Shown: positions 487 through 50,770 of the stretch, in pieces
Position numbering within the stretch: the first letter of the stretch is position 1
Layout: each line of letters starts with the position of its first letter
From: Ostreococcus lucimarinus
Taxonomy: Eukaryota
NCBI GenBank assembly: GCA_000092065.1
Contig: CP000591.1
Direction: 5' to 3' (one strand)
DNA length: 64,000 nt
Position numbers and translations under genes: made by a program
Notes under the pieces: generated by a model
Told to the model about the DNA's origin: nothing
The model's database searches: none
Seen by the model: only the letters and a program-made list of their open reading frames with translations

Positions 487-523
<37 letters not shown>

Positions 524-11376: not shown

Positions 11377-11410
11377 TATATGTGGACGTATATTTTGTTG
11401 TCCACGAATG

Positions 11411-11447
<37 letters not shown>

Positions 11448-11611: not shown

Positions 11612-12556
11612 TGTATTGCGCGTACGGCTACTCCCGACACGGCGACGTCGTCAACGGGTTCGGGATGTTCGGTAAGATCGGGCGCCACGCCTTATTCGTG
11701 GACGCCGCCCTGGAAAACGCGCACGCGGACTTCGGCGCGCGTCGCTTCTCCGTGCGTCGCGTCGAAGTCTGGGCGCTTGAGGCGCGCGCGCCCGGAATCG
11801 ACGCCGGCGCTTCGCCGCGCGCGGCGACGCGCGATCGAGCGACGATGGCGCAGTTTACGTCATCCGCGATCGCCCGCGACGTCCTCGACGCCACGACCGG
11901 CTGACATCAAGACCGCGACGGAACGTCGAGGAAAGATCTCGTCGACGCGCTGTTTCGCGAGTGCGGCGGACCAGAAGGTGTGGGAGGCGCTGACGGATAC
12001 GCGCGGCGTACGAGGCGACGTTCGCGGCGATTGAGGACGCGCGTCGCGCGAGATAGATGATAGATTGATACTAGATAGATCTGATGCAGCTCCTAGGCAG
12101 TCTCCTACGCGGTAGGAGACCTTGTTGTAACATACGATGTACGACGGATCCAAAAAGTGCGAGCACGTCACCGTCGACGACCCGTCCTCGAGCGCGCGAG
12201 CGCGACGCGCCGTTTTCAGTGACAAAAAAGAATGGCAACTTTGTTACCTCACCGGGATTCGAACCCGAGTCTGTTCGTGGAAGCGCGTGGCGTGTCCGTC
12301 AGTGTCGCGTTCACAATTTTTGGTGTCAACGTGTCCGTTCGCGTGTTCACGTGCGATGGGCGCGAAGATGCGTAGAATACGTACCTCTAGGGTGAAAGCC
12401 TAGCGTGATAACCATCTACACTATGAAGTACCGCTCGACCCCGCAAGGGGCCGCAGCGATCGATCTCTCCGATGTTTCGGAGTTCACGGGATGTACTCAT
12501 GTTTCAGCTCGTCCACACTTTCGTGTGGCTAGATAGAGATGTGTGCGGCTTGACAC
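11612..12556. repeat. Copy 2 of the 945-bp direct repeat (segment A-prime)
   Basis: Same sequence as 9175-10119. The duplicated ORFs 11611-11904, 11628-11894, 11777-12034, 11860-12225, 12084-12395 and 12137-12403 are identical to their copy-1 counterparts. Confidence 0.8.
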
Positions 12557-31094: not shown

Positions 31095-31330
31095 GTTTCC
31101 TCCCCTCGCGCTTCGCTCGCGCCGCCTCGGCGCCGCGCGTCCGCGCGTCCGCGCGTCCGCGCGTCTCTCCGCCTACCGCGCGCGCCTCGTCGCGATCGAG
31201 CGCCGCGACGCGTCGCGACGCGACGATTTGTGCCGCCGCGGTGCGCCGACGATCGGCGATCGGCCGCGGCGGCGCGCGACGATCGCGCGCACACCGCGAC
31301 GCACCGCGAGACGGACGCGAGGCGCGCGCG

Positions 31331-32146
31331 ATGGGTAAATGGATGGACGATGACGCGCCCGGTGGGCCGCAGGGCGCGCGCTCGTACGCCCCGTACGCGG
31401 GCGCGCAGGCGAACGATGCGTGTCGGAATTGCGGCCAGCTCGGACACTACGCGAGAAACTGCGCGCAGAACGCCGGACTGAACGGCGGCCGCGGCGCCGA
31501 TCGATGCAATCGATGCGGACAGATCGGACACTGGGCGAGCGAGTGCTCGCTGCCGTACTCGGGCGGCGCGGGCGCGGGAGGGTTCCGAGGGGCGGTCGGC
31601 GGCGGCGGCGCGCGGCCGGGCGATCGGTGCTCTAGGTGCGGAGGACTCGGACACTACGCGCGCGCGTGCCCGTCGCCGGCCATGGCGGCGTTCGCGGGAG
31701 GTGCGGGAGGCGCGCCGAAGACGTGCCATAACTGTGGACGCGTGGGACACATCGCGCGGGACTGCCGACAAGGCGGCGGCGCGCGAGGGTACGATAACGC
31801 CAGAGCGCCGAAGCAACGCAAGGGTGCGGGTCCGGACGATGTGTGTAATCGCTGCGGCGAAAAGGGACACTGGGCGAGCTCGTGCTCGCAACCGGACACG
31901 CGAACGGAGGCCGAGCGCACGAGACAAGCCAAGCCGGACGATAAGTGCCACCGATGCGGCGAGCTCGGGCACTTCGCCAAGGATTGCTCGTTGCCCCCGG
32001 ACAACACGTGCAGAATTTGCAAGCAAGAGGGACACTTCGCCAGAGAGTGCCCGAACAAGGACACCGCGGCGGCAGCGAACATGGATGCGGACCTTGATAA
32101 CTACATGAAGGAGGGCGCGGAGAAGAAGGAAAGCGGCGAGGCGTAA
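31331..32146 (+). CDS. CCHC zinc-knuckle protein (CNBP-like), 7 knuckles
   Basis: Seven CX2CX4HX4C repeats (CRNCGQLGHYARNC, CNRCGQIGHWASEC, CSRCGGLGHYARAC, CHNCGRVGHIARDC, CNRCGEKGHWASSC, CHRCGELGHFAKDC, CRICKQEGHFAREC). ATG at 31331 (MGKWMDD). Confidence 0.75.
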   Translation: MGKWMDDDAPGGPQGARSYAPYAGAQANDACRNCGQLGHYARNCAQNAGLNGGRGADRCNRCGQIGHWASECSLPYSGGAGAGGFRGAVGGGGARPGDRCSRCGGLGHYARACPSPAMAAFAGGAGGAPKTCHNCGRVGHIARDCRQGGGARGYDNARAPKQRKGAGPDDVCNRCGEKGHWASSCSQPDTRTEAERTRQAKPDDKCHRCGELGHFAKDCSLPPDNTCRICKQEGHFARECPNKDTAAAANMDADLDNYMKEGAEKKESGEA

Positions 32147-32395: not shown

Positions 32396-34138
32396 ATGTC
32401 GAAAAAGTTCTTGAACGCCCCCGACGACGTCGTGAGCGAAATGCTCGACGGCGTGTGCCTCGCCACGCCCTCGATCGCGCGCATCGCCGATCAGAACGTG
32501 CTCGTGCACGTTCGCGAGGGCGAGGACAAGGTGGTTGTGATTTCAGGCGGCGGAAGCGGCCACGAACCAGCCATGGCGGGGTATCTCGGTCGAGGCATGC
32601 TCGACGCCGCGGTGTGTGGGAACGTCTACGCCAGCCCGAGCGTGGAGGCGGTGCTGAGCGCGATTCGCGCGACGACGACCGACGCGGGGGCGGCGCTCGT
32701 GGTGATGAACTACACCGGGGACAGATTAAACTTTGGATTGGCCGCCGAACGCGCGAAACTCGAAGGTTTCGACGTGGAGATGGTGATCGTGAATGACGAT
32801 TGCGCGCTGGCGAGCGATCGAGTCGGGATCGCCGGCAGGCGCGGGCTTGCGGGGACGCTCTTCGCGCATAAAGTCGCCGGCGCGGCGGCGGACGCCGGTA
32901 AGTCTCTGAAGGAAGTGTGCGCGGAAGCGAGGGCGTGCGTCGAGGCCACGGGGACGATGGGGGTAGCGTTACAAGCGTGCACGCTTCCGGGATCGTCTGG
33001 CGTCGCGAGAGAGATTGCGGAAGGGACGATGGAGCTCGGACTCGGGATTCACGGCGAACCGGGAGCGCACACGGCTAAGACGACGAGCGCCGATGAAGTC
33101 GTAGAGACGCTCATGACGAGTATTTTCGCGCAGAATGAAAAGATTGGGAAACTGAGCGAAGGTTCAAACGTAGCGCTCATGGTGAACTCGCTCGGGGCGA
33201 CACCGTTGATGGAGTTGTACGTCGCCGCCCGCGCCGCGTTCTCGTGGCTTGCGGGCGTGAAGAAAATAAACGTCACGCACGCATACGTCGGCACGTTCAT
33301 GAGTGCGATCGATATGAACGGTTTTAGCGTCACCGTATGTGCGCTCGATGATGACACTAGAGTGCAGCGCCTCGAGGCGCCGTGTTCATGCTCCGCGTGG
33401 CCGAAGACGGCAAAACTCACTCCTGCGAAGCTCTTGTCGGTGTCAGCGCCGGCTTCCGATAGAAACGAAACCATCGCGAGCGGGCCACCGACGACTCCCG
33501 AGGGTGTCATGGCGTTGAAAGCTATCAAGCGCGTCGCAAAGGATCTCATCGCAGTGGAGGATACTCTCACAAAGTACGACACCGCGGTCGGCGACGGCGA
33601 TTGCGGCACCACGATTCGCAAGGGCGCTGAGGCTTTAATGAAAGCTGCGGATACTTACCCGATTGACGATGTCTCGGCGCTTATGCGTGCTATCGGGGAC
33701 ACAATCCGTCAGAACATGGGCGGTACGAGCGGCGTATTGTACGATATCTTTTTCACCGCCGCGGCGGATAAACTCGCAAAGGTTGCCAAGGGCAAAGCGC
33801 CGAGCGTCGACATCGTCCTTCTTGCGTTCTCAACGGGCGTGCAGGCGATGTGCCAGTACGGTGGCGCTCGCGCTGGTGATCGCACGATGCTAGACGCGCT
33901 CGTTCCTGCGTTAACAATGGCGACGACGACGTATATGTCGAAAAAGTCTGTCATCGAAGTTGCGTCCGAAGCCGCAAAGGCGGCTGCGAACGGCGCCGAA
34001 GACACAAAGAGCATGAAGGCAAACGCCGGACGTTCAAGCTATGTCAACCAAGACGTGTTGAAGGAAACACCTGACCCCGGTGCAGTCGCGGCGGCGACGT
34101 GGATTAACGCAATCTTTGCTGCAGTGTCTGAAAGTTGA
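32396..34138 (+). CDS. DAK: dihydroxyacetone kinase / triokinase (Dak1 + Dak2 domains)
   Basis: KKFLNAPDDVVSEMLDG...KVVVISGGGSGHEPAMAGYLGRGMLDAAVCGNVYASPS (DhaK motif), followed by a C-terminal DhaL-like domain. Confidence 0.85.
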   Translation: MSKKFLNAPDDVVSEMLDGVCLATPSIARIADQNVLVHVREGEDKVVVISGGGSGHEPAMAGYLGRGMLDAAVCGNVYASPSVEAVLSAIRATTTDAGAALVVMNYTGDRLNFGLAAERAKLEGFDVEMVIVNDDCALASDRVGIAGRRGLAGTLFAHKVAGAAADAGKSLKEVCAEARACVEATGTMGVALQACTLPGSSGVAREIAEGTMELGLGIHGEPGAHTAKTTSADEVVETLMTSIFAQNEKIGKLSEGSNVALMVNSLGATPLMELYVAARAAFSWLAGVKKINVTHAYVGTFMSAIDMNGFSVTVCALDDDTRVQRLEAPCSCSAWPKTAKLTPAKLLSVSAPASDRNETIASGPPTTPEGVMALKAIKRVAKDLIAVEDTLTKYDTAVGDGDCGTTIRKGAEALMKAADTYPIDDVSALMRAIGDTIRQNMGGTSGVLYDIFFTAAADKLAKVAKGKAPSVDIVLLAFSTGVQAMCQYGGARAGDRTMLDALVPALTMATTTYMSKKSVIEVASEAAKAAANGAEDTKSMKANAGRSSYVNQDVLKETPDPGAVAAATWINAIFAAVSES

Positions 34139-34167
34139 TTTAATGCTACGTAATGCTATTTCTAAAG

Positions 34168-37100
34168 TCACTCTGGAGGTCGCGGCGCGCGGCGAAATTC
34201 TCGCGGAACCTTCGTCGTGCCGTACCTAGGAGCTGTGAACGTTGGTCGCTCATTGAGCGCTGCAATGTTTGAACTCACGACTACTTCGCTTGCCTCGTTA
34301 TTTGCGCTTTCTATCGACCGTTGACGTCGGAAGTTTTCTCCACCGTACCAACGATCGGAAGCCGCCTCTCGTTTAGCGAGTCGATCGGCATGGAGCGCAC
34401 TTCTCGCCCTGCGCTGTCGTTCGAGTCTTTCCGTCGGTGGTGGTGGCGGCGGATGACGCACAATCTTCGGAGTCGCCTGATCCGGGACCCTCTTAAATCC
34501 TGTGGTGCCTTTCACCATCGTCATACGACCTCCGATGGGTGGGGCCGGCCCCTTGCTCGGATCGGAATCGCGTTCGATTTCTACTCTACCGCCTCGCGTT
34601 GACTTTGCCTGGCGGTGCGAGTTTCCTGAATGTTCCCTTTCCTTCATTTTACGCCAGAACTCGTTCAATCGAAGCTTGGATATCGTCTCATCCTTCTGGC
34701 GTTGCCTCTCGACAGAGCTGTGAATGATTGCACTCACGTTGTGCAGCGTCTCGCGCGAGGGGGCCGCGCCACGTACATCTCGCACATCGCTACTTTCGTC
34801 GTAAAGCGTGATTGCCGTGAGAGCTGAATCGTCCGACAATAGCGCTCGCATATCACTTATGCCGCGCTCGGCCGCCGCGCGAACGCCGGCGTTGTCGTCG
34901 GTGTTTACGATTTTCAAGAGCACGGCGATAAGCTTGTCGGTGTCTTTTTGTAGCCCTTGTACTTTGATATCGCCGTATAGACGCCGATACATCGTCTTTG
35001 ACATCAACGCTCCCCCGGGCATTTTGCGCTTTGCCGCGTCCACGAACCTCTCGAATGCAGCATCCGTGTACGACCCCGTTACGGGTACCTCAAAGTCATA
35101 AAAATTGCCCTCGGTTCCCCATACGAAGAGAGTAATCAAATCCACCAAGGCGTGTATCGAGAGTTCACGCGTCTCAGCTTCATCGTCGATCAGCATACCG
35201 TACAACGCATCGTGCACAAACTGCGCCGCCGACATAGAAATGAAAGCTTTGTAAGATTTTTTTGATACCTCGCCTTCGTCAGATTTTGTATTCATCACTC
35301 GGTAAACTGCGCTCATCTCCAGTTTAATCGATTGATGAAGAAGCTCGATGGCGTGAATTTTCTCTCGTTCTTTACCGGGCTCCATACTAACGATCAAGTG
35401 AGAGAGAGCGCTCAAAAACTCAGATCTGCACGCATCTGCGTTCGTCAGCGCGTAAAGGATTTCAGAGACAAACGTCTCCTTGGACGATCCAGCGTGCGCT
35501 TCCATACATTCAAAGAGAACTTTCAATCCATCGACGGCAAACACGCTCGGTCCCGCGTCACCAACTCGAACTAAAGTCGCGAGAGTCCGAATGGAATAGA
35601 ATGATATCTGCTTGTCCGTGCTTAGTGAGGCGTCGAGCAGCGTCTTCATGAAATCATGCGCGAGCTCAAGTCTTTCTTCATCCGCCTCGTTTTGCAACCT
35701 CCCGACGGCGGCATAATAACCCAGAGAACTGAACCAATTCAATTCAGGTCTATTCTTCGCTTTGACTTCTTGACGTAGCCAGCTACGCGCGACGTAAGTC
35801 ACGCGCTCAGCCTTGTCTAGTCTGCGGACCTCATCCGTGTCCGGATCCCTCACGTGCGTAATGGCTTGAGTGAGCTTTTTCGCAATCGGTCTCGGTGGAA
35901 TCTCGAACGCATCGTCAATTATTTGACGAAACATTCTCGCAGATACGACGTAATCTTCGCCATACATATCCAAATCAATGTCATGAGCTTTAAACAAGAG
36001 CGTCGACATGAGGTTTGCGAAGTCAAAAGACTGAATGCACTCCATCGATACCGTCGCCACGGTCGCTTGAAACGTTTTACTCTCCCCACCCTTGATGCAG
36101 TCTTTAACCGTGGAGACAATCGATTTGACCGCCTCCCATGTCGACGCTGGACTATCATCGTCGCACCAAAGTGCGATCTCTACCGTTCCCTGGACATACG
36201 CATGTATCACGCTTCTGATGAATCCTTCGCCGGCTACTTGGAGAAATTCTTGGTCTGGATCATCGATGATACAATGCATGATGATACCGAGCTCCTCAAA
36301 AGCGTCACTAGCTGTATCCCACGCGTCTCCAACGTCTTCATTCTCGCCGTCTTTCGTCTGCGAGGCCCTTGGCATGTTCGTCTTCTTCACCAAGGGAGAG
36401 AGCAATTGAGTGCGTTGCTCTGTGCTGAGAAGGTTATAAAACGCCACGAGCGCGACGACGCGATCTCTTCTATTCTCTGCCTCAACTTGTTCTTTGATAA
36501 ACTCCGGCGTCATGATCTTCTCAACCTTTTCCACTTGCTCTGGATCGCTCAATTTTTCAAGCTCTGAGCGAATGCACTTGTGATCTCCAAGACTATGATT
36601 GAAGACACGCACCATCACCATCGCGATCAACGTCATGATGATGCCAATCACAACTCCCGGGCGCGTCCAGTTTGAACCACCCGTGTGTGGAACTAAGCCA
36701 TGAGACATCCAAGGTGGATTATTGAAAATTCTCGAGAAATAGGTGACGACGGCGAACATAAACGCGCCACCGAAAGCACCAGCTCTCGATTCATTCCGCT
36801 TTTGCCCGAACCCGCGCAAAGACTGAATATTCATGTGCGCCACGAGTAAAACGAGGCAGACTACTACTGGCATGATATTTCGCAACGAGTTCAGACTTTC
36901 GAGTCGCGCCACGGAATCAAGTGCAGGGACGCCATGACCCGGAAGTTCACCTTCCATGTACGCCGCGATCGTAGCCAAGGAGACCTTCAAAAAGATGCTT
37001 AACATCTCAAAAATTGGGACGGGGCGTAAGTTGGGTTCAAGCGTCTCCGATACCACAGCCATCTTCATCGATACTGCAATCGCGCCGAGGCCAACGAAGA

Positions 37101-39006
37101 GTGAAATCATCAAGTTATCGCCGAAACTCGCGCTGGGGTCCTTCGACACGTGAATCCAAGGCGTCGGTGTGAACGACGTCGTCACCATGAGAAAGCCGAG
37201 CGAAGCAAAAACCATCGGAACGAGAGCGACTCGCAGGATTAACACGCGAAGTACGAACCCGACAGCTTTCACACGGTCTCTAAAGTCGCCCACGCGTTTC
37301 GAGTATGTCCTGCGCCTCAACGCGTACTCCGCCATGAGCTCCATTCTCTCAGCAGCTTCGCGAGGTATCAAGCGCAAATTGAGCGGCGAAGTCGTCTCCA
37401 AGCGCACGGTTCGGAGTATAGCTTCATCGCTACCGTTCTCCCACGCGACGTCGGGAACAACTTTGAAACGCTGTTTTTCGCGATCGCGCACTGGAGTGAA
37501 ATCATCTCGCATCGCAACTGGTTGAAGAAGAACACGTCGCATCGTCTTGCTCATCATCGCGTGCACTTTGGCCAACTTGTTCACTTGCACAGTCTCTTCG
37601 TCGACTTGCGCACCGCCACCTGATTCGGCGTCTGGGTCGTCCGAGTATTGCGTTAATGTTTTATCGCCGCCAAGCTCTACGTACTCCGCGAATGCCCACA
37701 TGCATTGATCAAAATGGTCTCGGACACGTCCACAAAACTTGACGACTACAGGGCAAATGACAACGCCGAACAAAAGCACGACGAACCAGTTCGTGAGCTC
37801 CGTCTTGGCACCACGCTCCGTCATATCCGGGCCGAATAAACCAGGGTAGAAGAACACGTCCGCTATCGCATCGCGATACATTTCGTTTGAATGACTCGAG
37901 CGGCGCCATGCAAACGCCGTAAATGCAAAGAACTCGATGTACAGCTGGAATCGAAGAAGATTGTGGCTCCAATACTCCTTGTCCAAGACCTTGGCCAACT
38001 TGTAACGAAACATTAGTGCAAACGTAGCGCTCCTTAGTCGCACGGTGTACTTCACCCACGCCATAAGTTTCGATGCGGTCGCGACAAGTTGCTCGCCAAC
38101 CATACTTCGACGCCGCTCGGCGCGCTCCGTTGCGTACAAATTCTTCTGAAACTGTTCCTCAGCTTCGTTCCACAGTCCCGCCTCTTTGGCCGCTCGTTCT
38201 CGCGCCGACTTTTTCTTGTCGACGAGTATATTTTTCAAATCTCGATCTAAATCAATCTTCGTGACGTACGTGATGTGCTCGCTCTTAATCTCCTGCGTCA
38301 ATTCATCCAGCTCTCGCTTGTACTCGTCATCCAACTCTGCGTCGGCTTCACCGCTCCCAATCATCTTATAAGACGCCCCGACGTCTAAAATAACGTTTCT
38401 CTTATCCTCGAAATCGGAAGATTCAAGATTTCGACCGAACGAGTACGCACAAAACGCGGCGAACGCGATGAACGCCGCCGCCACAGCGGTATTCGTCGAC
38501 GTCTCGCAAGTCCACGAAACCTCCACCTCGAGCGTCTGACTCGCGTAACAACCGTTCGTATCCACCAATGCTGCAGAATACTTCCCCTCGACGTCCGGTC
38601 GCAGCGTCGCCCGCGCGCTTCCATCGACGTCAAACGTCGCGTTCGCGAACGACGTCGCGTTCGTCAGCGCGCTCGTCGCCGGCCACGACATCAGCACCCA
38701 CCGCCGCGTCGCATCACTCGCGCTCTCGAACACGTAATCATCAAAGCATCGTTTCTTAGTCGCGTCCAGCGTCGTGGCGTCGTAGGGATCGCCACCGCGA
38801 CCGGCGATTTCGAGCGTCGTCGCCTTGGCGCCGTCGTCCGCGCGCGCCGTCACCGCCGCCATCGACGCGCTCGACACCGAGCACTGCGGCAGCGCGTCCA
38901 CCGCGCGCGCGAGCGCGAGCGCACCGATCACCGCGAGCGTCAACGCTCGCGCGGCGCCGTTCGCGCGCGCGCGCGTTCGCCGCGCGCCTCGTCGTCCCCG
39001 CGGCAT
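34168..39006 (-). CDS. large multipass membrane protein of unknown family, about 1,613 aa
   Basis: Start taken at MPRGRRG... with a signal peptide (ARALTLAVIGALALARAVDA). A cysteine-containing extracellular N-region is followed by roughly 10-11 hydrophobic helices and then about 800 aa of alpha-solenoid-like cytoplasmic sequence. GC is lower, about 50%. The first 303 aa of the track ORF overlap the LIG4 5-prime region and are run-through. Confidence 0.5.
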   Translation of the reverse strand: MPRGRRGARRTRARANGAARALTLAVIGALALARAVDALPQCSVSSASMAAVTARADDGAKATTLEIAGRGGDPYDATTLDATKKRCFDDYVFESASDATRRWVLMSWPATSALTNATSFANATFDVDGSARATLRPDVEGKYSAALVDTNGCYASQTLEVEVSWTCETSTNTAVAAAFIAFAAFCAYSFGRNLESSDFEDKRNVILDVGASYKMIGSGEADAELDDEYKRELDELTQEIKSEHITYVTKIDLDRDLKNILVDKKKSARERAAKEAGLWNEAEEQFQKNLYATERAERRRSMVGEQLVATASKLMAWVKYTVRLRSATFALMFRYKLAKVLDKEYWSHNLLRFQLYIEFFAFTAFAWRRSSHSNEMYRDAIADVFFYPGLFGPDMTERGAKTELTNWFVVLLFGVVICPVVVKFCGRVRDHFDQCMWAFAEYVELGGDKTLTQYSDDPDAESGGGAQVDEETVQVNKLAKVHAMMSKTMRRVLLQPVAMRDDFTPVRDREKQRFKVVPDVAWENGSDEAILRTVRLETTSPLNLRLIPREAAERMELMAEYALRRRTYSKRVGDFRDRVKAVGFVLRVLILRVALVPMVFASLGFLMVTTSFTPTPWIHVSKDPSASFGDNLMISLFVGLGAIAVSMKMAVVSETLEPNLRPVPIFEMLSIFLKVSLATIAAYMEGELPGHGVPALDSVARLESLNSLRNIMPVVVCLVLLVAHMNIQSLRGFGQKRNESRAGAFGGAFMFAVVTYFSRIFNNPPWMSHGLVPHTGGSNWTRPGVVIGIIMTLIAMVMVRVFNHSLGDHKCIRSELEKLSDPEQVEKVEKIMTPEFIKEQVEAENRRDRVVALVAFYNLLSTEQRTQLLSPLVKKTNMPRASQTKDGENEDVGDAWDTASDAFEELGIIMHCIIDDPDQEFLQVAGEGFIRSVIHAYVQGTVEIALWCDDDSPASTWEAVKSIVSTVKDCIKGGESKTFQATVATVSMECIQSFDFANLMSTLLFKAHDIDLDMYGEDYVVSARMFRQIIDDAFEIPPRPIAKKLTQAITHVRDPDTDEVRRLDKAERVTYVARSWLRQEVKAKNRPELNWFSSLGYYAAVGRLQNEADEERLELAHDFMKTLLDASLSTDKQISFYSIRTLATLVRVGDAGPSVFAVDGLKVLFECMEAHAGSSKETFVSEILYALTNADACRSEFLSALSHLIVSMEPGKEREKIHAIELLHQSIKLEMSAVYRVMNTKSDEGEVSKKSYKAFISMSAAQFVHDALYGMLIDDEAETRELSIHALVDLITLFVWGTEGNFYDFEVPVTGSYTDAAFERFVDAAKRKMPGGALMSKTMYRRLYGDIKVQGLQKDTDKLIAVLLKIVNTDDNAGVRAAAERGISDMRALLSDDSALTAITLYDESSDVRDVRGAAPSRETLHNVSAIIHSSVERQRQKDETISKLRLNEFWRKMKEREHSGNSHRQAKSTRGGRVEIERDSDPSKGPAPPIGGRMTMVKGTTGFKRVPDQATPKIVRHPPPPPPTERLERQRRARSALHADRLAKREAASDRWYGGENFRRQRSIESANNEASEVVVSSNIAALNERPTFTAPRYGTTKVPREFRRAPRPPE

Positions 39007-39319
39007 GGATTCGCTCGCCTCGGACGCGCGCGCGCGCGCCCGCGCGCTCGCGCGCCCGCGCGCGCCGCCCGCGCGCGCGGCGCCGAGCGATGACATCGCG
39101 CTACGCCTCGCGCATGCTCGCGAGACGACGGATCGCGGGCGACGCCGTGCGTCGCGGTTTACCGTCGCGCTGCAAACGGTCGATGACTCCGTCAGAACGC
39201 GACGACGACGAAGACGACGACGAAGACGACGAAGACGCGCGCGCGCGCGCGACGGAGGCGCGGCGAAACGCGCGTCGGCGTCGCGACGACTGCGCGGCGC
39301 GAACGCGCGCGTGACGGCG

Positions 39320-42304
39320 ATGGACGACGTTGCGAATGATTCCGGGCACCGTCTCGGAACGCGCGACGGCGGCGACGACGACGACGACGACGCGGAAGAG
39401 GACGGCGCGCGGTTGACGAGCGAACCTTCGACGTCGGGCGCGTCGCTGAGATACGCCACCGCGCGCGACGTGCCGTTTCGAAAGCTGTGCGGCGCGTTCG
39501 AGGCGTTGCAGAACGAACGCGGTCGGTCCAAGGCGACGAGCGCGCGGCGGTATCGAGTGCTCGATACACTGCACGATCGATGTCTCGTGAGCGCGCGCGA
39601 TGGAACCCGCGTCGACGCGTTCGACGCGTATCGGTTGATACTGCCGGCGTTGGACAAGGAACGAGGGGCGTATTTCTTGAAACACGACGCGTTGGCCAAG
39701 GTGGTGGTGTCGGCGTTCGACATGTCTCGAGCGAGCGAGGACGCGAAAAAGTTGGAGGATTGGAAACGAAAGGGTGGCGGTAACTTTCCGCAAGTTGTTC
39801 GAGACGTTTTGGCGGGTGGACATCTCGCGGATCGTGAGAAAGATGAAGACGCGCGCACGTTGACCATCGGAGACGTGAACGAGGCGTTGGACGCATTGGC
39901 GGCGTGCGATAACAAGGATCAGCGCGCGTCGACGCTGCGGGCGCTGTTTTCAAAGATGGATGCGACGCAAGTGAAATGGACGTGCGCAATCATATTAAAG
40001 GAAACAAAAATTTCAATGGGAGAGAAGGCGATATTGCGTCATTATCACTCCGAAGCGAATGACTTGTGGGATTGGACTAGCGATTTGCGAAGAGTTTGTG
40101 AAGACTTACCGCGGCGAGACTTCCGGATGAAGCGCGAGGACATCGATGTGGGCGTAGGTTTAATTAATCCTCAGATGGCGAGAAGGCAAAACAGCATCGA
40201 TGCCGTGTACCGCGCGTTGAAAGGTACGCAGTTTGTCATCGAAACCAAATTCGACGGCGAGCGCATTCAAATTCACAAAGACGGCGACATCATCAACTAC
40301 TGGACGAGAAACATGAACGATTTTGGCCCTCGTGGCTACGATGTGATGAATGCTCTCTTTCGTCATTTGCCAAAGCGATGCATTCTCGACGGCGAACTCA
40401 TGGTTTGGAACAAGCTTCGCGATCAGTCGTACCCGTTCGGCGCGTTGAAGAATCTCATCAAGGCTGCAAATATGCGCAAGGCCAAGGATGAATTGTTTCC
40501 ACTCAAGGCACACCTCGAAAACCGTGATGGTGGTGATAGCGACGGTGAGGAGGATCTCATGAGCTCCAAGTATGCGTGGTACGCCGAGAACGTAAAGAAA
40601 CTCACGTATGGAGACTTGGAATTGGTCTACGTTCCGTTTGATATATTGTATGCCGTCGATCGAAGTGTGAAGACTCATAAGCTGAGAGAGCGGCATGAAC
40701 TTTTGAAAGAGCATGTGCGTGAAGTATCAGTCATGTGTGGGAATATTCGTGCTAGAATTCTTCTCGCGACGCCCGATTGCGCGTTCTCACGTGTAGGCTC
40801 AACGAAGGAGGATATCGAGCGCGCGCTGTTAGAAGCGATGGATAACGGAGAGGAGGGATTGGTAATCAAAGATCTCGACGGTCCATGGATACCAGGTGAT
40901 CGTAGCAATAACTGGATGAAAATCAAACCAGACTACTTATCGAGTGAAGATTTGGACGTCGTTCTCATCGGCGGCTATTACGGCGCCGGTGAGTTGCGCG
41001 GGGGCAAAATTTCGCAGTTCCTCTGTGGCATTGTGGAGGCAACGAACGATCCGATTAGCACCGCTTCAGATGGAGTCAAAATCATGAGCTTTTGCAAGGT
41101 AGGTACTGGTATCAGCGCCATGCAGCTCGACGATTTGAGAAGTCGGCTAGGCGACTTCATGCACAGAGAAAAGCCTCAAGACATGAACTACAACGTCACG
41201 GATGCTTACAACGAAAAGCCGGACGTTTGGATCTGGCCTCCTCAGCGATCATTGGTTGTGACGGTGAAAGGTGACATTCGTGCGATTCGCACGACAACTT
41301 TCGCAACTGGTTACAGCCTGCGTTTCCCCCGCGTCACCGGTATTCGATATGACAAAAAATGGTCCGACATCTTGACACTCTGCGATCTCTTAAAGACGAT
41401 TGAAGAGGAAGTACCGACATTGAAAGTGAATATCGACGATACACGAGGCGGTACGAATGCCCGAAAGCGTTCGCGCACGACGGGACCCGCGACGCTACTA
41501 CCTGCACATCTCATGCCGGTTGACGTTTCGGGCGTCGTGCAGGAATCTGAAATCTTCAAAAACATGCAAGTGCACATCGCGAACTGTGAAAGTCGAGAAC
41601 AAAAGCAGGAGCTGTTCAAAGCTGTCATCGCACGTAGTGGTACTACGAGTGAGTTGTGGCACAAGCATGTGACGCACAGCGTTGCGTTGAACCGCGACGG
41701 CTCAAAGTTCAGGACGGCGAGTCGGGAAGGCGATGTGTACACGATTGCCTGGCTCCAAGAGTGCATTCACGAAGGACGTGTGGTACCGCCGAAACCTCGA
41801 CATCGCTTACATCTCTCAGCGACGACGTGGTATGGTACGGATGCCATGGATCGATACGGAGATGATCATTTCTCGGACTGCAATTTGGCCGACGTACACG
41901 CGCTCGTGCATCAAGTTGGCGATCAAACTAAGCGTTGGAAAACTGCCGAAGTTCCAGCATTGGTGGAGCTCGATCGCGAGTATCCATCGGTGTGTGCTGA
42001 TGTGAAACTTTTGACGTTTAGGGGTTGTGTGTTCGAGATTGACGATTCTCTCGGCAAAGATGCGCGTGTTGATGAGCAGAGTAGTATGTTTCCAAGTGTG
42101 CTGGCGGGCGAACGTCGAAACGTCGAACAGATTCTTCGGATTTATGGTGGAAAGCTCGCACCTGAAGGCAGAATGGGGACACATATTGTGCGCATGTACG
42201 ATGACTCCGTTGTCTTTGAAGATATGGATGATGGAAGAAAGCAAGTTTCGCTCTCTTGGGTGAAACGTTGCATCGACCGGTCGACAACGGCTGATGTAGT
42301 CTAA
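39320..42304 (+). CDS. LIG4: DNA ligase IV (ATP-dependent, NHEJ) with tandem C-terminal BRCT domains
   Basis: Adenylation motif ETKFDGERIQIHKDG, OB-fold region, and two BRCT-like modules (IFKNMQVHIANCESREQKQELFKAVIARSGT and LRIYGGKLAPEGRMGTHIV). ATG at 39320 (MDDVANDS). Confidence 0.85.
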   Translation: MDDVANDSGHRLGTRDGGDDDDDDAEEDGARLTSEPSTSGASLRYATARDVPFRKLCGAFEALQNERGRSKATSARRYRVLDTLHDRCLVSARDGTRVDAFDAYRLILPALDKERGAYFLKHDALAKVVVSAFDMSRASEDAKKLEDWKRKGGGNFPQVVRDVLAGGHLADREKDEDARTLTIGDVNEALDALAACDNKDQRASTLRALFSKMDATQVKWTCAIILKETKISMGEKAILRHYHSEANDLWDWTSDLRRVCEDLPRRDFRMKREDIDVGVGLINPQMARRQNSIDAVYRALKGTQFVIETKFDGERIQIHKDGDIINYWTRNMNDFGPRGYDVMNALFRHLPKRCILDGELMVWNKLRDQSYPFGALKNLIKAANMRKAKDELFPLKAHLENRDGGDSDGEEDLMSSKYAWYAENVKKLTYGDLELVYVPFDILYAVDRSVKTHKLRERHELLKEHVREVSVMCGNIRARILLATPDCAFSRVGSTKEDIERALLEAMDNGEEGLVIKDLDGPWIPGDRSNNWMKIKPDYLSSEDLDVVLIGGYYGAGELRGGKISQFLCGIVEATNDPISTASDGVKIMSFCKVGTGISAMQLDDLRSRLGDFMHREKPQDMNYNVTDAYNEKPDVWIWPPQRSLVVTVKGDIRAIRTTTFATGYSLRFPRVTGIRYDKKWSDILTLCDLLKTIEEEVPTLKVNIDDTRGGTNARKRSRTTGPATLLPAHLMPVDVSGVVQESEIFKNMQVHIANCESREQKQELFKAVIARSGTTSELWHKHVTHSVALNRDGSKFRTASREGDVYTIAWLQECIHEGRVVPPKPRHRLHLSATTWYGTDAMDRYGDDHFSDCNLADVHALVHQVGDQTKRWKTAEVPALVELDREYPSVCADVKLLTFRGCVFEIDDSLGKDARVDEQSSMFPSVLAGERRNVEQILRIYGGKLAPEGRMGTHIVRMYDDSVVFEDMDDGRKQVSLSWVKRCIDRSTTADVV

Positions 42305-42350
42305 ATTTAGCGGCTGGTGTTCGCGTCCCCTGAATGATTGACGCGATACG

Positions 42351-43688
42351 ATGCGCACGTCACAGGACTTGGCTCTTTTAGAACCATTTGTTCCGAAGGC
42401 GGCGAAATGGCTCTCGTCGCACGCAGCTGATGGATGTCTCTCCATTTCACGCCGCCGCGGGAGAGCCGCCTTGCTCTTTGTGGATATGAATGACTTTGTA
42501 AAAGTTAGTAATGGTGCGGTTCGCGAGCACGCATTGGCTGCCGCATCTTTCAACCACATTCGCCCGTCTATATACGGTAAACGGCGCAACCTCGAGGCCT
42601 CCGCTCGATGTGCAGCGTGCTTACGAGACGTGCTCGCTGAATACTTTTCTATACTCGCAGACATCGTGAGCGCGTACGACGGCGAGGTGTTGGCATTCAT
42701 AGGGGACGCCATGCTTGCTGCGTGGTTCGTACGCGGCGACATGGATGACGATGAAGAGATGCGGTGCGCCACAAAACGGGCTCGGCTCTGCGCGCAGGGC
42801 ATTCTCACGAATGTTCACGGGCGTGCCTTGAAAGAAATTGTCACCATCACGCTGAAAGCGATGATCTCTGCAGGCCCAGTCGTCGCCATTCCCACCAAGT
42901 TTCCCAATCATGCACGCGGTGTGGTGGTAATCGGTGACGCGTTTGATGACTTAAGAGCGATGAAGGGATTAATGCAATCGGGGAAGGTCGTTTTCAATGC
43001 GTTAAGTTGCGCACTCCTCGCATCGGGTGGAAACAGAGACACGGCGAGCGCAACGACATCGATTTTCACGACACTGCCACGCGCGCGTGTCAAGGAATTC
43101 ATCCCGTCGCACGTTTTCAACGCATTTGCAGATGGTTTGATCGGGTTCGACGATAAAACACCTTCCTTGAGCGAGGTGTGTACCGTCGCCTTTGTGCGAT
43201 TCAATCCCAAAGGAGACGACTGTGTAGTCGAATGCATCGGCGTCGTGCATCGCGTGGTTTCGCAATATCAGGGCGTTGTTTTGCAAAGTATCGTAGATGA
43301 CAACGGGCCTTCGTGCTTGTGCGCGTTCGGCGTTCCCGGAACCCCCAAGCGCGGCGCGACGACGAGAGGATTGCGATTCGCGCGAGATCTCTTGAAAACA
43401 CTAGACGGTGCGCTGACGCACGCGCGGTGTGGGTTGTCCACAGGCGTCGTGAACATAGGTGCCGCGTGTGAGGTGAACTCTAAGTCGCATTCCGAGTTCT
43501 CGCTCGTCGGTGTCCCAGTGATACTGGCCGCCCGACTAGCTGATGCGGTGAAACCTGGCGTCGCGGCGATGGATGAAGAGACGCGTGTTTGGGCGGCTTC
43601 AGCGCTCAACAATAATGCGCGTACGTCTCGCATTGAATTATGTTTAAAAGGTTTCCCGCGAGCGATGACAACGTTTATCATAGAGTAG
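42351..43688 (+). CDS. class III nucleotidyl cyclase with two tandem cyclase-homology domains (soluble adenylyl cyclase-like core)
   Basis: CHD1: AALLFVDMNDFVKVS...DGEVLAFIGDAMLAAW, with both metal-binding Asp positions present. CHD2: CTVAFVRFNPKG...GLSTGVVNIGAACEVNSKSHSEFSLVGVPVILAARLADAVKPG, lacking the Asp pair as in sAC C2. About 55% GC. Confidence 0.65.
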   Translation: MRTSQDLALLEPFVPKAAKWLSSHAADGCLSISRRRGRAALLFVDMNDFVKVSNGAVREHALAAASFNHIRPSIYGKRRNLEASARCAACLRDVLAEYFSILADIVSAYDGEVLAFIGDAMLAAWFVRGDMDDDEEMRCATKRARLCAQGILTNVHGRALKEIVTITLKAMISAGPVVAIPTKFPNHARGVVVIGDAFDDLRAMKGLMQSGKVVFNALSCALLASGGNRDTASATTSIFTTLPRARVKEFIPSHVFNAFADGLIGFDDKTPSLSEVCTVAFVRFNPKGDDCVVECIGVVHRVVSQYQGVVLQSIVDDNGPSCLCAFGVPGTPKRGATTRGLRFARDLLKTLDGALTHARCGLSTGVVNIGAACEVNSKSHSEFSLVGVPVILAARLADAVKPGVAAMDEETRVWAASALNNNARTSRIELCLKGFPRAMTTFIIE

Positions 43689-43708
43689 CTGCAACTAACT
43701 GATTCTTT

Positions 43709-45987
43709 CTATTCAATATCACCAAGTCCTGTCCTAGTTCTGTCGTCTTCGTCTCTTGATTGTGCGGCGCACCGCGTGTCGGCGAGCGCCTTGGGTAATT
43801 TGTAAGCCCACTCACACGAGCATGTTATTGGATCTTTCAATACCTCTGTCACGACGCCTCGAGTGGCGAGACGAGATTGCTCTCCCTCCGCGATGCCGCA
43901 GTGCCGCTCCACAACTCGCGGCTCGTACTCTTTTCCATCCTTTCCCCCGCCGCTGCGAGGTCGACCTTGCTTGTCGTACGCTTCGTTGAAGCAGAAGTAC
44001 TGGTCGTGGTTGAGCGCGTTGTTGATCGCCGTATCAAATGCCTCGTCCTTTTGTTTATCATCGAAACCGCAAAATGAGCCTTCATCGAGTTGGTCGATCA
44101 TGATGACGCCGTGATCGTTATACGATTCCAGCGCCTCGACGGCGTCACTCGCTGAGAAACCGCGCTCGATGACGACATCAGCCATGTTTTTGTCGTCTTT
44201 CGCGCCAATTTTAACGTGAATGACATCTTCTCGAACGTTCCCTTTAAGTCGCATGTCTTCGAGGAACCCTGCTTCGCGAAAATCAACGCCCAAGTCATGC
44301 AAGCCTTCGAGGTTGTAGATGTGATCCATCGGGCACGCGTACGGCAAATGCGCCGTCTCGGCGCCGAGCGCGCGACATCCGGCGAGCGTGTTCCATATTT
44401 TATCGCAGTAACATCGCGCGGGTGGTAGCACAAAGATTCGTCCGAGCGCTTTCGCCAGGGCGAAGCCGTTTCGAATCGTCGTTCTTCGCAATCTGTCCTC
44501 TTCAAAGTGTCGCGTGATGGCGGTTAAATACGCATCGTTTTCCATGCCGATGGCCCGAGAACCATTGAACTTCATCTGCGACCCTTTGGTGGAGATGGTC
44601 AAGTACTTCTTTGGCTTCCAATAATCTGTGTCATCGTCTGCATACCATAAACCATGCTGTCGCAGTCTTTGACGCTTGCCGTACGCGTACCGCGCAGAAT
44701 CGCCGTATTGGTACGTCGTGTGCACCGCGTACGGCTCACCGTCCTCGGGGTGGTACAAGTGGTGCTCTTGCACGAAGAAAGTATGACCGTTGGAGAATTG
44801 CGCGATGGGCAAAACGCCCATGCGAATCGTGCTGTTTGCTGCGAAGACGATCGAGCGATACCCCGGTAATCCGCGCTTGTCATCGGGAACCGCCACCGCG
44901 GGCGCGAGCGCGGGAGATCCTTCGCGCACGAGCAAATTCAGCGCCGGCTGGTCGCGCATCCACGCGATCTCGCTCGTCGCTACTTTTTGCTTCCACTTTT
45001 CCACGAACGCCTTCGCCGGCTCCGTGGGCCGAATGTGCACGATGCCCGTGTTAAAGTTGACGTTGCGACAGTTGGCGTTGTCGGCGCGATCGTTCACGGT
45101 GTCGATGCAATCGCTCGATATCAGCACGTCCGCGTATGCGTAAGTGCCGTTGTTGAATAGCTCGCGCGGATCGCGCATCCAAACCACGTCCGCGTCGCTC
45201 AGAATCGGCGCTATCCCAAGCTCGAGCAAATCTTGAATAAACTTCGTCTTCACCGTGCCCATCTTTTTAAACGTCTTGCTCTTTTGCGTGATGAACTCTT
45301 GATCCCTATTATCCAACACTGACCGCCCCGTGAGCAGCATGGATGGTATCCCAGCCTTAACACATAGTGTGTGCATCTCTTCGTCTAAAGCGCCGACGAA
45401 TATCGGCTCTAAACTCAACTTTTTCGCCGCCGCCGCCCAATTGAAGACGAAATCCTGCACGCTCGCCGTGCCAAACGTCACGAACATCTCCCCCCCAGCC
45501 TTAGCGCCGACCCGCCGCAACTCCTCCGGCACGTGTTCCATCTTCTTTCCAAGCTCCATTTTCGCCGCATCATCGAGCGCATCCGCGGAAACGTCCTTCC
45601 ACGCCTGTCGCATCCACTTCGGCTCGTCGTCGTCGATCGCCAGCCCCGCGAACGTCGTCGCCGGCGGTTCCAACAGCGCGAAATCCATCCCCCGATCCCT
45701 CGGCCTCGATCCCGTCGACGCCGCGTCATCGCGTCGGTTCAATTCCACCCGTCCTTTTTCTCCCTCGTCCGTCGTCGTCGTCGTCGTCGTCGCCGACGCG
45801 AACCGATTTCTCCGCGTCGCCGACGCGTTCGCGTTCGCGTTCGCGTTCGCGTTCGCCGCCGCGTTCGCGTTCGCGTCCGCGTCCACCGCCGCCTCCACGG
45901 CCGCGTCGCTCCGCGCGCGCGCCGTCGCGTCGTACATCGACGCCGACGCGTCGTCGCCCGCCCTCCGCGCCGTCGCGTCGTCGATCG

Positions 45988-50691: not shown

Positions 50692-50765
50692 GTTGGGTTG
50701 GTATAGTTGGTTATTACGTCCGCCTCACACGCGGAAGGTCAGGAGTTCGAACCTCCTACCCAATA
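50692..50765 (+). tRNA. tRNA-Val (anticodon CAC)
   Basis: GTTGGGT-TG-GTAT-AGTTGGTTA-TTAC-G-TCCGC-CTCACAC-GCGGA-AGGTC-AGGAG-TTCGAAC-CTCCT-ACCCAAT-A folds as a cloverleaf, with one mismatch in the D-stem and G1-U72. Confidence 0.75.
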
Positions 50766-50770
50766 CGCGC

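What the first reader, a model, noticed from the sequence alone, without database searches (positions are those of the whole stretch)
34168..39006. Unclassified multipass membrane protein of about 1,600 aa with a signal peptide and an approximately 800-aa cytoplasmic solenoid
A cleavable-looking signal peptide and a Cys-containing ectodomain of about 130 aa are followed by roughly 10-11 TM helices and a long C-terminal region with armadillo/HEAT-like periodicity. I cannot place it in the OSCA/TMEM63, TMEM16, Piezo, TRP or TMC families from sequence memory. It is one of the lower-GC genes in the window, at about 50%.
Basis: partly seen in the sequence, partly recalled or inferred. Interest (0 to 1): 0.5.

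Follow-up and report, generated by a model that had tools for sequence, protein, structure and literature searches.

The report
Orphan algal multipass membrane receptor-like protein
This is a real single gene of the tiny marine alga Ostreococcus lucimarinus encoding a large membrane protein (small sugar-coated outer domain, about nine membrane helices, long inner helical-repeat arm); its membrane core matches no known protein family, relatives turned up only in closely related picoalgae, and its function is untested.

Summary
Window 34168-39006 (minus strand) is one uninterrupted 1612-codon ORF. From Met106 it is identical to Ostreococcus lucimarinus XP_001420476.1/A4S4Q5 ("predicted protein", "Armadillo-type fold"), whose public model lacks the first 105 residues.

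Anatomy:
- signal-peptide-like N-terminus
- 130-aa Cys-containing, N-glycosylation-sequon-bearing beta ectodomain, weakly PKD/Ig-like
- TM1
- 150-aa cytosolic helical hairpin
- TM2-3
- 150-aa cytosolic loop
- six-helix conserved core (TM4-9)
- about 600-aa HEAT/ARM-like solenoid
- about 200-aa basic tail with conserved motifs

I count 9 TM helices, not 10-11. The solenoid is about 600 aa, not 800. GC is 54%, not 50%.

It is one gene. The ORF is intact and syntenic in at least five divergent Ostreococcus lineages, and dN/dS is 0.10-0.25 in every segment.

No Pfam, NCBIfam or PDB family matches the membrane part. An exhaustive HMM search of 1.8 billion proteins found relatives only in Mamiellophyceae: Ostreococcus, high-GC Micromonas-like contigs, and Crustomastix, whose copy adds three FN3 domains.

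AlphaFold models were too poor (pLDDT 52 and 56) to classify the core by fold.

Best reading: a receptor/adhesion-like multipass scaffold. A channel or transporter is not excluded. Interest is moderate to low.

The parts
34168..39006 (-). Complete single-exon CDS, 1612 codons plus stop. It corresponds to O. lucimarinus XP_001420476.1 extended by 105 N-terminal residues.
   Evidence: The ORF is conserved and syntenic in orthologues. dN/dS is 0.18.
38893..39006 (-). Residues 1-38: signal-peptide-like N-terminus, with an Arg-rich n-region, the hydrophobic core LTLAVIGALALA and an A-V-D-A site.
   Evidence: Read from the sequence and hydropathy. The hydrophobic core plus AxA is conserved in orthologues, while the Arg-rich extension is not.
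38503..38892 (-). Residues 39-168: ectodomain, predicted beta-sandwich, weakly PKD/Ig-like, with invariant C87, C153, C167 and an invariant N116-A-T sequon.
   Evidence: The family profile hits 18 and 9 repeated Ig/PKD-like modules of bacterial adhesins. Foldseek gave only non-significant beta-sandwich hits.
38431..38502 (-). Residues 169-192: TM1 (out to in).
   Evidence: Hydropathy, AlphaFold helix, positive-inside count.
37972..38430 (-). Residues 193-345: charged cytosolic region predicted as two long antiparallel helices (coiled-coil-like hairpin).
   Evidence: helices at protein residues 220-275 and 281-341, pLDDT 74-83, the best part of that model. Composition.
37717..37971 (-). Residues 346-430: TM2 (weakly hydrophobic, FAFTAFAWRR) and TM3, joined by the conserved loop NEMYRD...LFGPD.
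37279..37716 (-). Residues 431-576: cytosolic loop of about 146 aa, acidic in the middle, ending in a basic juxtamembrane stretch. It is the least conserved segment.
   Evidence: conservation 0.55; dN/dS 0.25.
36586..37278 (-). Residues 577-807: six-helix conserved membrane core (TM4-TM9). It carries the family signature P597, GFLMVTTSF-PTPW-H-SKD (603-623), L-R-P-x-P-x-F-E (660-667), K674, E685, H724, Q-S-L-R-G (728-732) and R741.
   Evidence: This is the region that retrieves distant homologues. No Pfam or PDB match.
34807..36585 (-). Residues 808-1400: cytosolic all-alpha HEAT/ARM-like solenoid of roughly 28 helices. It includes the conserved RRDRVVALVAFY and FANLM..LLF.AHDIDLD motifs and a HEAT-like DKLIAVLLKIVNTDDNAGVRAAAE repeat.
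   Evidence: confident only for residues about 1114-1294; ARM/HEAT Foldseek hits; HEAT in 5 of 7 orthologues; UniRef 'Armadillo-type fold'.
34171..34806 (-). Residues 1401-1612: basic, Arg/Pro/Ser-rich tail (K+R 43 against D+E 28), probably mostly disordered. It has invariant short motifs: DET..K.R.NEFWR, RHPP, RLA.R.A..RWYG and LN...T.TAP..G..P..F.
   Evidence: dN/dS is 0.20, so it is translated and constrained.
39007..39319 (.). Intergenic region of about 310 bp shared with the divergently transcribed DNA ligase gene, a presumed bidirectional promoter. It is GC-rich with (CGT)n/(GCG)n runs.
   Evidence: Ligase orthologue lengths of 974-994 aa point to the Met at 39320.

Best explanation
Shown. 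This is one intron-less, single-copy nuclear gene of Ostreococcus lucimarinus. It encodes a 1612-aa polytopic membrane protein of the secretory pathway, with this layout:
- a cleavable-type signal peptide;
- a small, N-glycosylation-sequon-bearing, disulfide-capable beta-sandwich ectodomain on the outside or lumen;
- nine TM helices (N-out, C-in), of which the last six form the conserved core;
- everything else in the cytosol: a helical hairpin, a 146-aa loop, a 600-aa HEAT/ARM solenoid and a 200-aa basic tail.

It belongs to an unnamed protein family detectable only in Mamiellophyceae.

Inferred. It most likely works as a receptor/adhesion-type transmembrane scaffold.
1. The Ig/PKD-like ectodomain binds an external or luminal partner. 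In Crustomastix this ectodomain is extended to about 850 aa with three FN3 and two PKD-like modules.
2. The conserved membrane core couples this to its cytosolic face, where the most conserved motifs sit (LRPxPxFE, and QSLRG...R at the inner ends of TM5/6 and TM7/8).
3. The HEAT/ARM solenoid and the tail motifs recruit cytosolic proteins.

Confidence is about 0.9 for the anatomy and the single-gene status, and about 0.35-0.4 for the mechanism. The figure given is for the mechanism.
For: Gene and anatomy:
- ORF, hydropathy and topology.
- Identity to XP_001420476.1.
- Orthologues with an intact ORF and ligase-gene-DAK synteny.
- dN/dS 0.10-0.25 in all eight segments.

Secretory or external ectodomain:
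- The hydrophobic core plus AxA is conserved.
- The N-x-T sequon and three Cys are invariant.
- The Crustomastix homologue has a plain signal peptide followed by 3 Pfam fn3 domains (E 3e-26) and PKD-like modules.
- The family profile hits repeated Ig/PKD-like adhesin modules.

Scaffold:
- ARM/HEAT fold class.
- Conserved linear motifs in the tail.
- The strongest cross-genus conservation lies at the cytosolic ends of TM5-TM8.
Against: - There is no experimental or expression data.
- The membrane core could not be modelled (pLDDT below 50), so its fold is unknown.
- The core contains invariant charged or polar residues inside predicted helices (K674, E685, H724). These would also fit a channel, transporter or intramembrane enzyme.
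- The PKD/Ig assignment of the ectodomain is weak. It rests on a multi-repeat hit (E 2e-7) and on Foldseek E>=0.58.
- The window protein itself has no Pfam HEAT hit.
- Subcellular location (plasma membrane or endomembrane) is unknown.
Confidence: 0.38

Rival explanations
1. It is an ion channel or transporter of a new sequence family. The six-helix core (TM4-9) would form a polar permeation or translocation path using K674, E685 and H724, plus R587/R592 in Ostreococcus. The cytosolic solenoid would be a regulatory or gating module, as in RyR, IP3R and TRP-type channels that carry large helical-repeat domains.
For: Charged or polar residues in predicted TM helices are invariant across genera. 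The core is a compact six-helix bundle followed directly by a large cytosolic alpha-solenoid. The core is the most widely conserved part of the protein.
Against: - No Pfam hit to Ion_trans, PKD_channel, Anoctamin, RSN1_7TM, Piezo, TMC or any transporter family at E<=10, in 7 orthologues or 11 core sequences.
- Nothing in PDB by profile.
- The TM8-TM9 loop, where a P-loop would sit, is short in Ostreococcus and neither length- nor sequence-conserved in the distant homologues.
- The two TM4 arginines are not conserved outside Ostreococcus.
- There is no 3+3 internal repeat (hhalign probability 0.5%).
Confidence: 0.25
2. It is an intramembrane or membrane-embedded enzyme, for example a lipid- or glycan-modifying transferase. 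The invariant His/Glu/Lys/Arg residues of the core would be catalytic, and the solenoid would be a substrate- or partner-docking arm.
For: Invariant H724, E685, K674, R661, R731 and R741 cluster in and near the core helices. Many polytopic enzymes have no soluble catalytic domain. That last point is general knowledge and was not tested here.
Against: There is no similarity to MBOAT, GT-C, DHHC, rhomboid or any other Pfam or NCBIfam enzyme family. Most of the invariant residues lie at the cytosolic membrane interface rather than in a recognisable active-site motif.
Confidence: 0.1
3. The long ORF is an artefact. It would be two adjacent genes (a membrane protein and an ARM protein) read through, or a fused or mis-assembled model.
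For: GC-rich genomes give long spurious ORFs, and the same frame stays open for a further 303 codons upstream of the ATG, to 39915.
Against: - The same 1576-1642-aa ORF is uninterrupted in at least seven Ostreococcus lineages that are only 41-57% identical to each other.
- Flanking genes are the same.
- dN/dS is 0.10-0.25 in each of eight consecutive segments, including the TM9-solenoid junction.
- The distant homologue P0091 is collinear from the ectodomain to the solenoid across 873 aligned columns.
- Crustomastix transcripts of 1957-1993 aa carry ectodomain, core and HEAT-like C-terminus in one ORF.
- The NCBI model is also a single CDS.
Confidence: 0.03

Closest known systems
Ostreococcus tauri XP_003081973.1 / Q00YY3 'Armadillo-type fold' (uncharacterised), with the unnamed orthologues in other Ostreococcus clades
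   Same: It is a full-length orthologue, 53% identical, with the same domain order and length (1623-1632 aa). The other Ostreococcus orthologues examined lie in the same ligase/DAK neighbourhood.
   Different: Nothing functional is known for it either. The only annotation is the superfamily label for the C-terminal solenoid.
Crustomastix stigmatica MMETSP0803 protein (EukProt EP00217_P009027; P0102/P0129)
   Same: It has the same overall plan: signal peptide, beta-domain ectodomain ending in a '...Y.V.L.V.DGC....I...V.W...C' module just before TM1, the conserved TM core (LRPLPQF, H..., ISIRG; hhalign probability 91%, E 1e-6), and a long helical C-terminus with HEAT-like motifs.
   Different: Its ectodomain is about 850 aa with three FN3 domains and two PKD-like modules. 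Only the core is alignable by sequence. The coiled-coil hairpin and tail motifs were not detectably conserved.
Polycystin-1 / PKD1-like (PKD-REJ) proteins
   Same: This is a resemblance of plan only. Both have an Ig/PKD-type ectodomain, a first TM helix separated from the remaining TM helices by a cytosolic domain, a final six-helix bundle and a cytosolic C-terminal interaction region.
   Different: No GPS/GAIN, REJ, PLAT or PKD_channel match. There are 9 TM helices, not 11. A coiled-coil hairpin stands in place of PLAT. There is a 600-aa HEAT/ARM solenoid. It is not a member.
ARM/HEAT alpha-solenoid scaffolds (beta-catenin, Vac8, importin-alpha, CAND1, AP-2 beta)
   Same: The fold class of residues about 808-1400 matches. 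Foldseek gives E 1.7e-4 to 2e-3 and probability about 1.0. Pfam HEAT is sub-threshold in orthologues.
   Different: TM-scores are only 0.13-0.27 and identity 8-13%, on a low-confidence model. No specific ARM/HEAT family is matched. Those proteins are soluble, not fused to a nine-helix membrane domain.
PKD/Ig-like repeat modules of cell-surface adhesins (K319L-like PKD, Ig_7/CHU_C-associated, POM152 Ig-like)
   Same: The C-terminal half of the ectodomain (residues about 112-163, '...LRPDVEGKYSAALVDTNGC....LEVEV') matches 18 and 9 tandem modules of two Bacteroidetes T9SS adhesins that carry these Pfam domains. There is a weak K319L-like PKD hint in the high-GC homologue locus (E 0.076).
   Different: No Pfam PKD or Ig model matches the window protein itself. 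Foldseek hits to beta-sandwiches are not significant.

Membership tests
OSCA/TMEM63 (CSC1-like) channels | Sequence match to Pfam RSN1_TM / PHM7_cyt / RSN1_7TM | tested here: not met
   No such hit at E<=10 in any of 7 orthologues, in the isolated TM region or in 11 diverse core sequences.
TMEM16/anoctamin, TMC, Piezo | Sequence match to Pfam Anoctamin, TMC or Piezo models | tested here: not met
   No hits. PDB sequence and profile searches were empty.
TRP / voltage-gated-like 6TM channels including polycystin-2 | Ion_trans or PKD_channel match, and a conserved pore loop between the last two helices | tested here: not met
   No Pfam hit. The TM8-TM9 loop is about 21 aa in Ostreococcus and is not conserved in length or sequence in distant homologues.
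Polycystin-1-like (PKD-REJ) | GPS/GAIN motif before TM1 and a PLAT domain after TM1 | tested here: not met
   No GPS, REJ or PLAT Pfam hit. The post-TM1 segment is predicted as a helical hairpin.
PKD/Ig-like beta-sandwich domains (ectodomain) | Beta-sandwich fold with the PKD-type C-terminal strand motif, and a match to a PKD or Ig profile | tested here: inconclusive
   About 8 predicted strands at pLDDT 55-72. The family profile hits repeated Ig/PKD-like adhesin modules at E 2.4e-7 and 5.8e-4. However, there is no direct Pfam hit and Foldseek E is >=0.58.
ARM/HEAT alpha-solenoid superfamily (C-terminal region) | Tandem helical-hairpin repeats structurally superposable on ARM/HEAT proteins | tested here: met
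   The region is all-alpha with about 28 helices. The top 50 Foldseek PDB hits are almost all ARM/HEAT-type alpha-solenoid proteins, 19 of them at E<=1e-3. Caveat: model pLDDT is 56 and TM-scores are <=0.27.
ARM/HEAT alpha-solenoid superfamily (C-terminal region) | Pfam HEAT or ARM repeat above the gathering threshold | tested here: inconclusive
   HEAT (PF02985) is found in 5 of 7 orthologues, best E 7.3e-5. The window protein itself has only ARM_LIN_C at E 0.12, below the cut-off.
Unnamed Mamiellophyceae family (O. tauri Q00YY3 and relatives) | Collinear full-length homology with conserved core motifs LRPxPxFE / H...QSLRG / RRDR | tested here: met
   Synteny is shown.
Secretory-pathway type-I-like N-terminus | Cleavable signal peptide confirmed by a predictor or by experiment | not testable with these tools
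   Only sequence features (n/h/c regions, AxA) and their conservation were assessed.

The most novel reading that the evidence does not exclude
The conserved six-helix core, with its LRPxPxFE / K...E / H...QSLRG signature, is a genuinely new membrane-protein fold or family. It could be a new class of channel, transporter or signal-transducing module that arose in Mamiellophyceae and is coupled to an adhesion-type ectodomain and a HEAT/ARM arm. In other words, it would be a lineage-specific surface sensor of the ocean's smallest eukaryotic phytoplankton with no counterpart elsewhere.
Probability: 0.3. Interest if true: 0.6.

Novelty: new variant of a known kind. Interest (0 to 1): 0.35.

Why it matters
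Ostreococcus and Micromonas are globally abundant picophytoplankton with minimal genomes of about 8,000 genes. Large, conserved, single-copy genes of unknown function are therefore likely to do something the cell needs.

A surface-exposed Ig/PKD-type domain wired to a conserved membrane core and a big cytosolic scaffold is the kind of protein that could mediate cell-cell, cell-virus or environmental sensing in organisms that have no wall, scales or flagella. If the core proved to be a new channel, transporter or receptor fold, it would add a membrane-protein family.

As things stand it is an uncharacterised lineage-restricted gene. It is useful to flag, and O. tauri genetics could test it, but it is not in itself surprising.

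A practical by-product is that the public O. lucimarinus model should be extended by 105 codons to include the signal peptide.

Tried and rejected
- Pfam, NCBIfam and PDB sequence or profile searches were run on the whole protein, on four sub-regions, on 7 orthologues and on 11 diverse core sequences. They gave only sub-threshold, inconsistent hits (DUF6305, ARM_LIN_C, DUF7819, holin and others), which I rejected as noise.
- AlphaFold2 was run on residues 40-830 and 805-1470 with the 7-sequence alignment. pLDDT was 52 and 56, and the TM core was below 50, so the models were unusable for fold assignment.
- Both word-index homologue searches with the full-length protein or profile returned only six Ostreococcus clusters. 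A third search, with the diverse core profile, returned only three fragments and was effectively wasted.
- The viral-contig scan gave no relatives. The metagenome pattern scan gave only Ostreococcus-type loci.
- The test for an internal 3+3 duplication of the core was negative. Self-BLAST for repeats was negative.
- A downstream ORF in the high-GC homologue locus is not related to the solenoid.
- Literature searches by accession and keywords found no paper mentioning this protein.
- I considered a chloroplast or thylakoid (Tat-like) reading of the Arg-rich N-terminus and rejected it. The Arg-rich extension is absent in three lineages that keep a plain signal peptide. The ectodomain also carries a conserved N-glycosylation sequon and, in Crustomastix, FN3 domains.
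- I considered an arms-race (virus receptor) signal and did not see it. The ectodomain dN/dS is 0.12, among the lowest in the protein.
Full report
**What is there**

The minus strand of window 34168-39006 carries one uninterrupted reading frame of 1612 codons, from the ATG at 39006 to the stop at 34168-34170. From Met106 onwards the product is letter-for-letter identical to Ostreococcus lucimarinus CCE9901 XP_001420476.1 / UniProt A4S4Q5. That entry is 1507 aa, "predicted protein", with UniRef name "Armadillo-type fold". The window is therefore nuclear DNA of this prasinophyte picoalga.

The public model starts 105 codons too late. The segment upstream of Met106 aligns with conserved residues in all orthologues (E66, G69, G72, Y75-D76, R86-C87-F88, F93-E94, R102-W103) and carries the signal-peptide-like N-terminus. 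An alternative ATG 33 codons further upstream (39105) cannot be excluded without transcript data.

**Anatomy**

Kyte-Doolittle hydropathy, AlphaFold secondary structure and a positive-inside count agree on the following plan.

| Residues | Feature |
|---|---|
| 1-38 | Signal-peptide-like: Arg-rich n-region, hydrophobic LTLAVIGALALA, A-V-D-A site |
| 39-168 | Ectodomain with about eight predicted beta strands; invariant C87, C153, C167; invariant N116-A-T sequon |
| 169-192 | TM1 |
| 193-345 | Two long antiparallel cytosolic helices, the most confident part of the model (pLDDT 74-83) |
| 346-430 | TM2 (weak) and TM3 |
| 431-576 | Cytosolic loop of 146 aa |
| 577-807 | Six closely spaced helices, TM4-TM9 |
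| 808-1400 | All-alpha solenoid |
| 1401-1612 | Basic Arg/Pro/Ser-rich tail with invariant short motifs (NEFWR, RHPP, RWYG, LN..PT.TAP) |

With nine TM helices, N-out and C-in, the loops assigned to the cytosol carry 24 K+R near the membrane against 7 on the outside. I therefore count nine helices (ten if 577-614 were a hairpin) rather than 10-11, and a solenoid of about 600 aa plus a 200-aa tail rather than 800 aa. GC is 0.538 (GC3 0.61), against a window mean of 0.62 and GC3 of about 0.8 in most neighbouring genes. The neighbouring ligase gene and the ORF at 42351-43688 are similarly low.

**One gene, and a real one**

Full-length homologues of 1576-1642 aa were found in at least seven further Ostreococcus-type lineages, 45-57% identical to the window protein and 41-57% to each other across lineages. 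One of these is O. tauri XP_003081973.1/Q00YY3.

In the lineages whose loci I inspected, the gene sits between a divergently transcribed ATP-dependent DNA ligase and a convergent dihydroxyacetone kinase. These are followed by a zf-CCHC protein, DUF2301, an adaptin and a porin, the same order as in the window.

Between two orthologues that are 90% identical, dN/dS is 0.18 overall and 0.10-0.25 in each of eight consecutive segments, including the loop, the TM9-solenoid junction and the tail. A distant homologue is collinear over 873 aligned columns, from the ectodomain to the solenoid. The two-gene and artefact readings are therefore rejected.

**Family search**

- Pfam-A gives nothing above threshold for the window protein (DUF6305 at E 0.065, ARM_LIN_C at E 0.12).
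- NCBIfam gives nothing.
- PDB sequences give nothing with the single sequence or with profiles.
- Scanning all seven orthologues gives only HEAT (5 of 7, best E 7.3e-5) and related solenoid families, and nothing for the membrane part.
- The isolated TM region gives no Pfam family at E<=10.
- Eleven diverse core sequences give no Pfam family shared by more than one member at E<=10.

This directly tests and rejects sequence-level membership of OSCA/TMEM63, TMEM16, Piezo, TRP/Ion_trans, PKD_channel and TMC. All of these have Pfam models.

**Wider distribution**

I ran an exhaustive HMMER search with a profile of residues 60-1255 against 1.84 billion representative proteins. It returned only 23 hits at E<=1e-3. 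They fall into the following groups.

- Full-length Ostreococcus orthologues and fragments of them.
- A set of Ala/Gly-rich proteins from marine metagenome contigs of 62-70% GC: P0091, P0092, P0096-P0099 and P0101. I take these to be Micromonas-like Mamiellales. That is an inference from composition and is not verified. The best of them aligns to the Ostreococcus profile with hhalign probability 99.3%, E 5e-20.
- A 1957-1993-aa protein of Crustomastix stigmatica (MMETSP0803). This is a Mamiellophyceae genus outside Mamiellales (taxonomic placement from my own knowledge). Its core aligns with probability 91%, E 1e-6.
- Two Bacteroidetes T9SS adhesins, which match only the ectodomain, 18 and 9 times over, through their tandem Ig/PKD-like modules.

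The Crustomastix protein has a plain signal peptide, three Pfam fn3 domains (E 3e-26), two PKD-like modules, a TM helix, the conserved core and a long C-terminus with HEAT-like motifs.

The family plan is therefore signal peptide, beta-module ectodomain, TM1, cytosolic linker, conserved core, helical C-terminus. It is shared across Mamiellophyceae, and nothing outside that class was detected for the core.

Across genera the conserved positions are P597, K622-D/S-P, L660-R-P-x-P-x-F-E667, K674, E685, H724, Q/I-S-L/I-R-G (728-732) and R741. In my topology, most of these lie at the cytosolic ends of TM5-TM8.

**Structure**

The two AlphaFold2 runs were limited by the seven-sequence alignment.

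- For the model of residues 40-830, mean pLDDT was 52.2 and pTM 0.32, with the whole TM core below 50.
- For the model of residues 805-1470, mean pLDDT was 56.3 and pTM 0.43, confident only for about residues 1114-1294.

Foldseek of the C-terminal model against PDB returned almost exclusively ARM/HEAT-type solenoid proteins: beta-catenin, Vac8, importin-alpha/beta, CAND1, SF3B1 and AP-2 beta. There were 19 hits at E<=1e-3, with TM-scores of 0.13-0.27. This supports the fold class and nothing more specific.

**How it most likely works**

*Shown:* it is a secretory-pathway polytopic protein whose small conserved ectodomain faces out or into the lumen, and whose coiled-coil hairpin, loop, solenoid and tail face the cytosol.

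*Inferred:* it is a receptor/adhesion-type scaffold. Three observations support this.
1. The ectodomain is of the modular Ig/PKD/FN3 kind used for binding, and its size varies between genera while the core is kept.
2. HEAT/ARM solenoids and conserved short tail motifs are protein-docking devices.
3. The strongest cross-genus conservation is on the cytosolic face of the core, next to where the solenoid begins.

I put this at about 0.38.

The main rival, at 0.25, is a channel or transporter of a new family with a regulatory solenoid. It is favoured by invariant K, E and H in the helices. It is disfavoured by four things: no homology to any known channel or transporter, no conserved pore-loop candidate, no internal repeat, and non-conservation of the TM4 arginines outside Ostreococcus. 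An intramembrane enzyme is a minor possibility at 0.1.

**Comparison with known systems**

In plan, the protein recalls polycystin-1-like proteins: an Ig/PKD ectodomain, a first helix set apart by a cytosolic domain, a terminal six-helix bundle and a cytosolic interaction region. However, every defining domain of that family (GPS/GAIN, REJ, PLAT, PKD_channel) was searched for and not found, so it is not a member.

Its nearest named relative is the equally uncharacterised O. tauri Q00YY3. No paper in the searchable library mentions either accession.

**Verdict**

The finding is accurate and the gene is real, single and conserved. It is already in the databases as an unnamed predicted protein. 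What is new here is:
- the corrected N-terminus;
- the domain and topology map;
- the definition of a Mamiellophyceae-restricted family with a signature core;
- the exclusion of known channel families.

It combines known module types around a core of unknown affinity, so I file it as a new variant of a known kind (receptor-like multipass protein). I give a 0.3 chance that the core is a genuinely new fold or functional class. Interest is 0.35.

Noticed in passing
window 38692-39006 (minus strand; residues 1-105): The public O. lucimarinus model XP_001420476.1/A4S4Q5 begins at Met106. It therefore lacks the signal peptide and the conserved first third of the ectodomain, and should be extended.
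   Followed up: yes
window 39004-39320: The ATG of this gene and the first in-frame ATG of the opposite-strand DNA ligase ORF share a CATG palindrome at 39004-39007. Orthologue lengths indicate the ligase really starts at the Met at 39320. That leaves a GC-rich bidirectional intergenic region of about 310 bp with (CGT)n/(GCG)n runs. The same minus-strand frame stays open 303 codons upstream of the ATG, a typical spurious ORF extension in GC-rich DNA.
   Followed up: partly
window about 34000-44000: This is a block of adjacent genes with unusually low GC3 (0.60-0.63) in a window where most genes have GC3 of about 0.8. The genes are this one, the DNA ligase at 39320-42304, and the ORF at 42351-43688. 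The ORF at 10360-11376 is also low (0.56). The cause was not examined; possibilities include expression level, gene length or local recombination.
   Followed up: no
window 34138-34168: The convergent dihydroxyacetone kinase gene (32396-34138, plus strand) ends only 29 nt from this gene's stop codon. The two 3' UTRs must overlap or be extremely short.
   Followed up: no
protein residues 611-619 and 759-768 (window about 37150-37176 and 36703-36732): Two extracellular loops, after TM4 and after TM8, carry similar invariant motifs: SF-PTPW-H and FN-PPW--H. hhalign does not support a duplication (probability 0.5%), so the recurrence is unexplained.
   Followed up: partly
cluster member P0007 (JGI/IMG): An automatic JGI annotation calls a near-identical metagenomic copy 'Skp family chaperone for outer membrane proteins'. 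This is almost certainly a spurious hit of the charged coiled-coil segment (residues 193-345) to a bacterial model.
   Followed up: no
L025 (Crustomastix stigmatica MMETSP contig, 7893 nt): The 'transcript' contig carries the family homologue (422-6295, plus strand) and a MYST histone acetyltransferase on the opposite strand (6405-7640). This suggests overlapping convergent transcription or genomic carry-over in the transcriptome assembly.
   Followed up: no
L026 7189-14652 (70% GC marine contig, 319 kb): The high-GC homologue is split by the gene caller into several consecutive plus-strand ORFs in different frames. The ectodomain match is in frame 1 at 8986-9357, and the core is in frame 2 at 10412-12109. 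This is consistent with introns or assembly frameshifts. Its true length and organism (Micromonas-like?) are unresolved.
   Followed up: partly
window 50692-50766 (+): tRNA-Val (CAC), the only tRNA gene ARAGORN reports in the window.
   Followed up: no
window 31241-32146 (+): This is a Gly/Arg-rich ORF with about eight CCHC zinc knuckles (C-x2-C-x4-H-x4-C). It is conserved next to the DAK gene in other Ostreococcus lineages, where it is annotated zf-CCHC.
   Followed up: no
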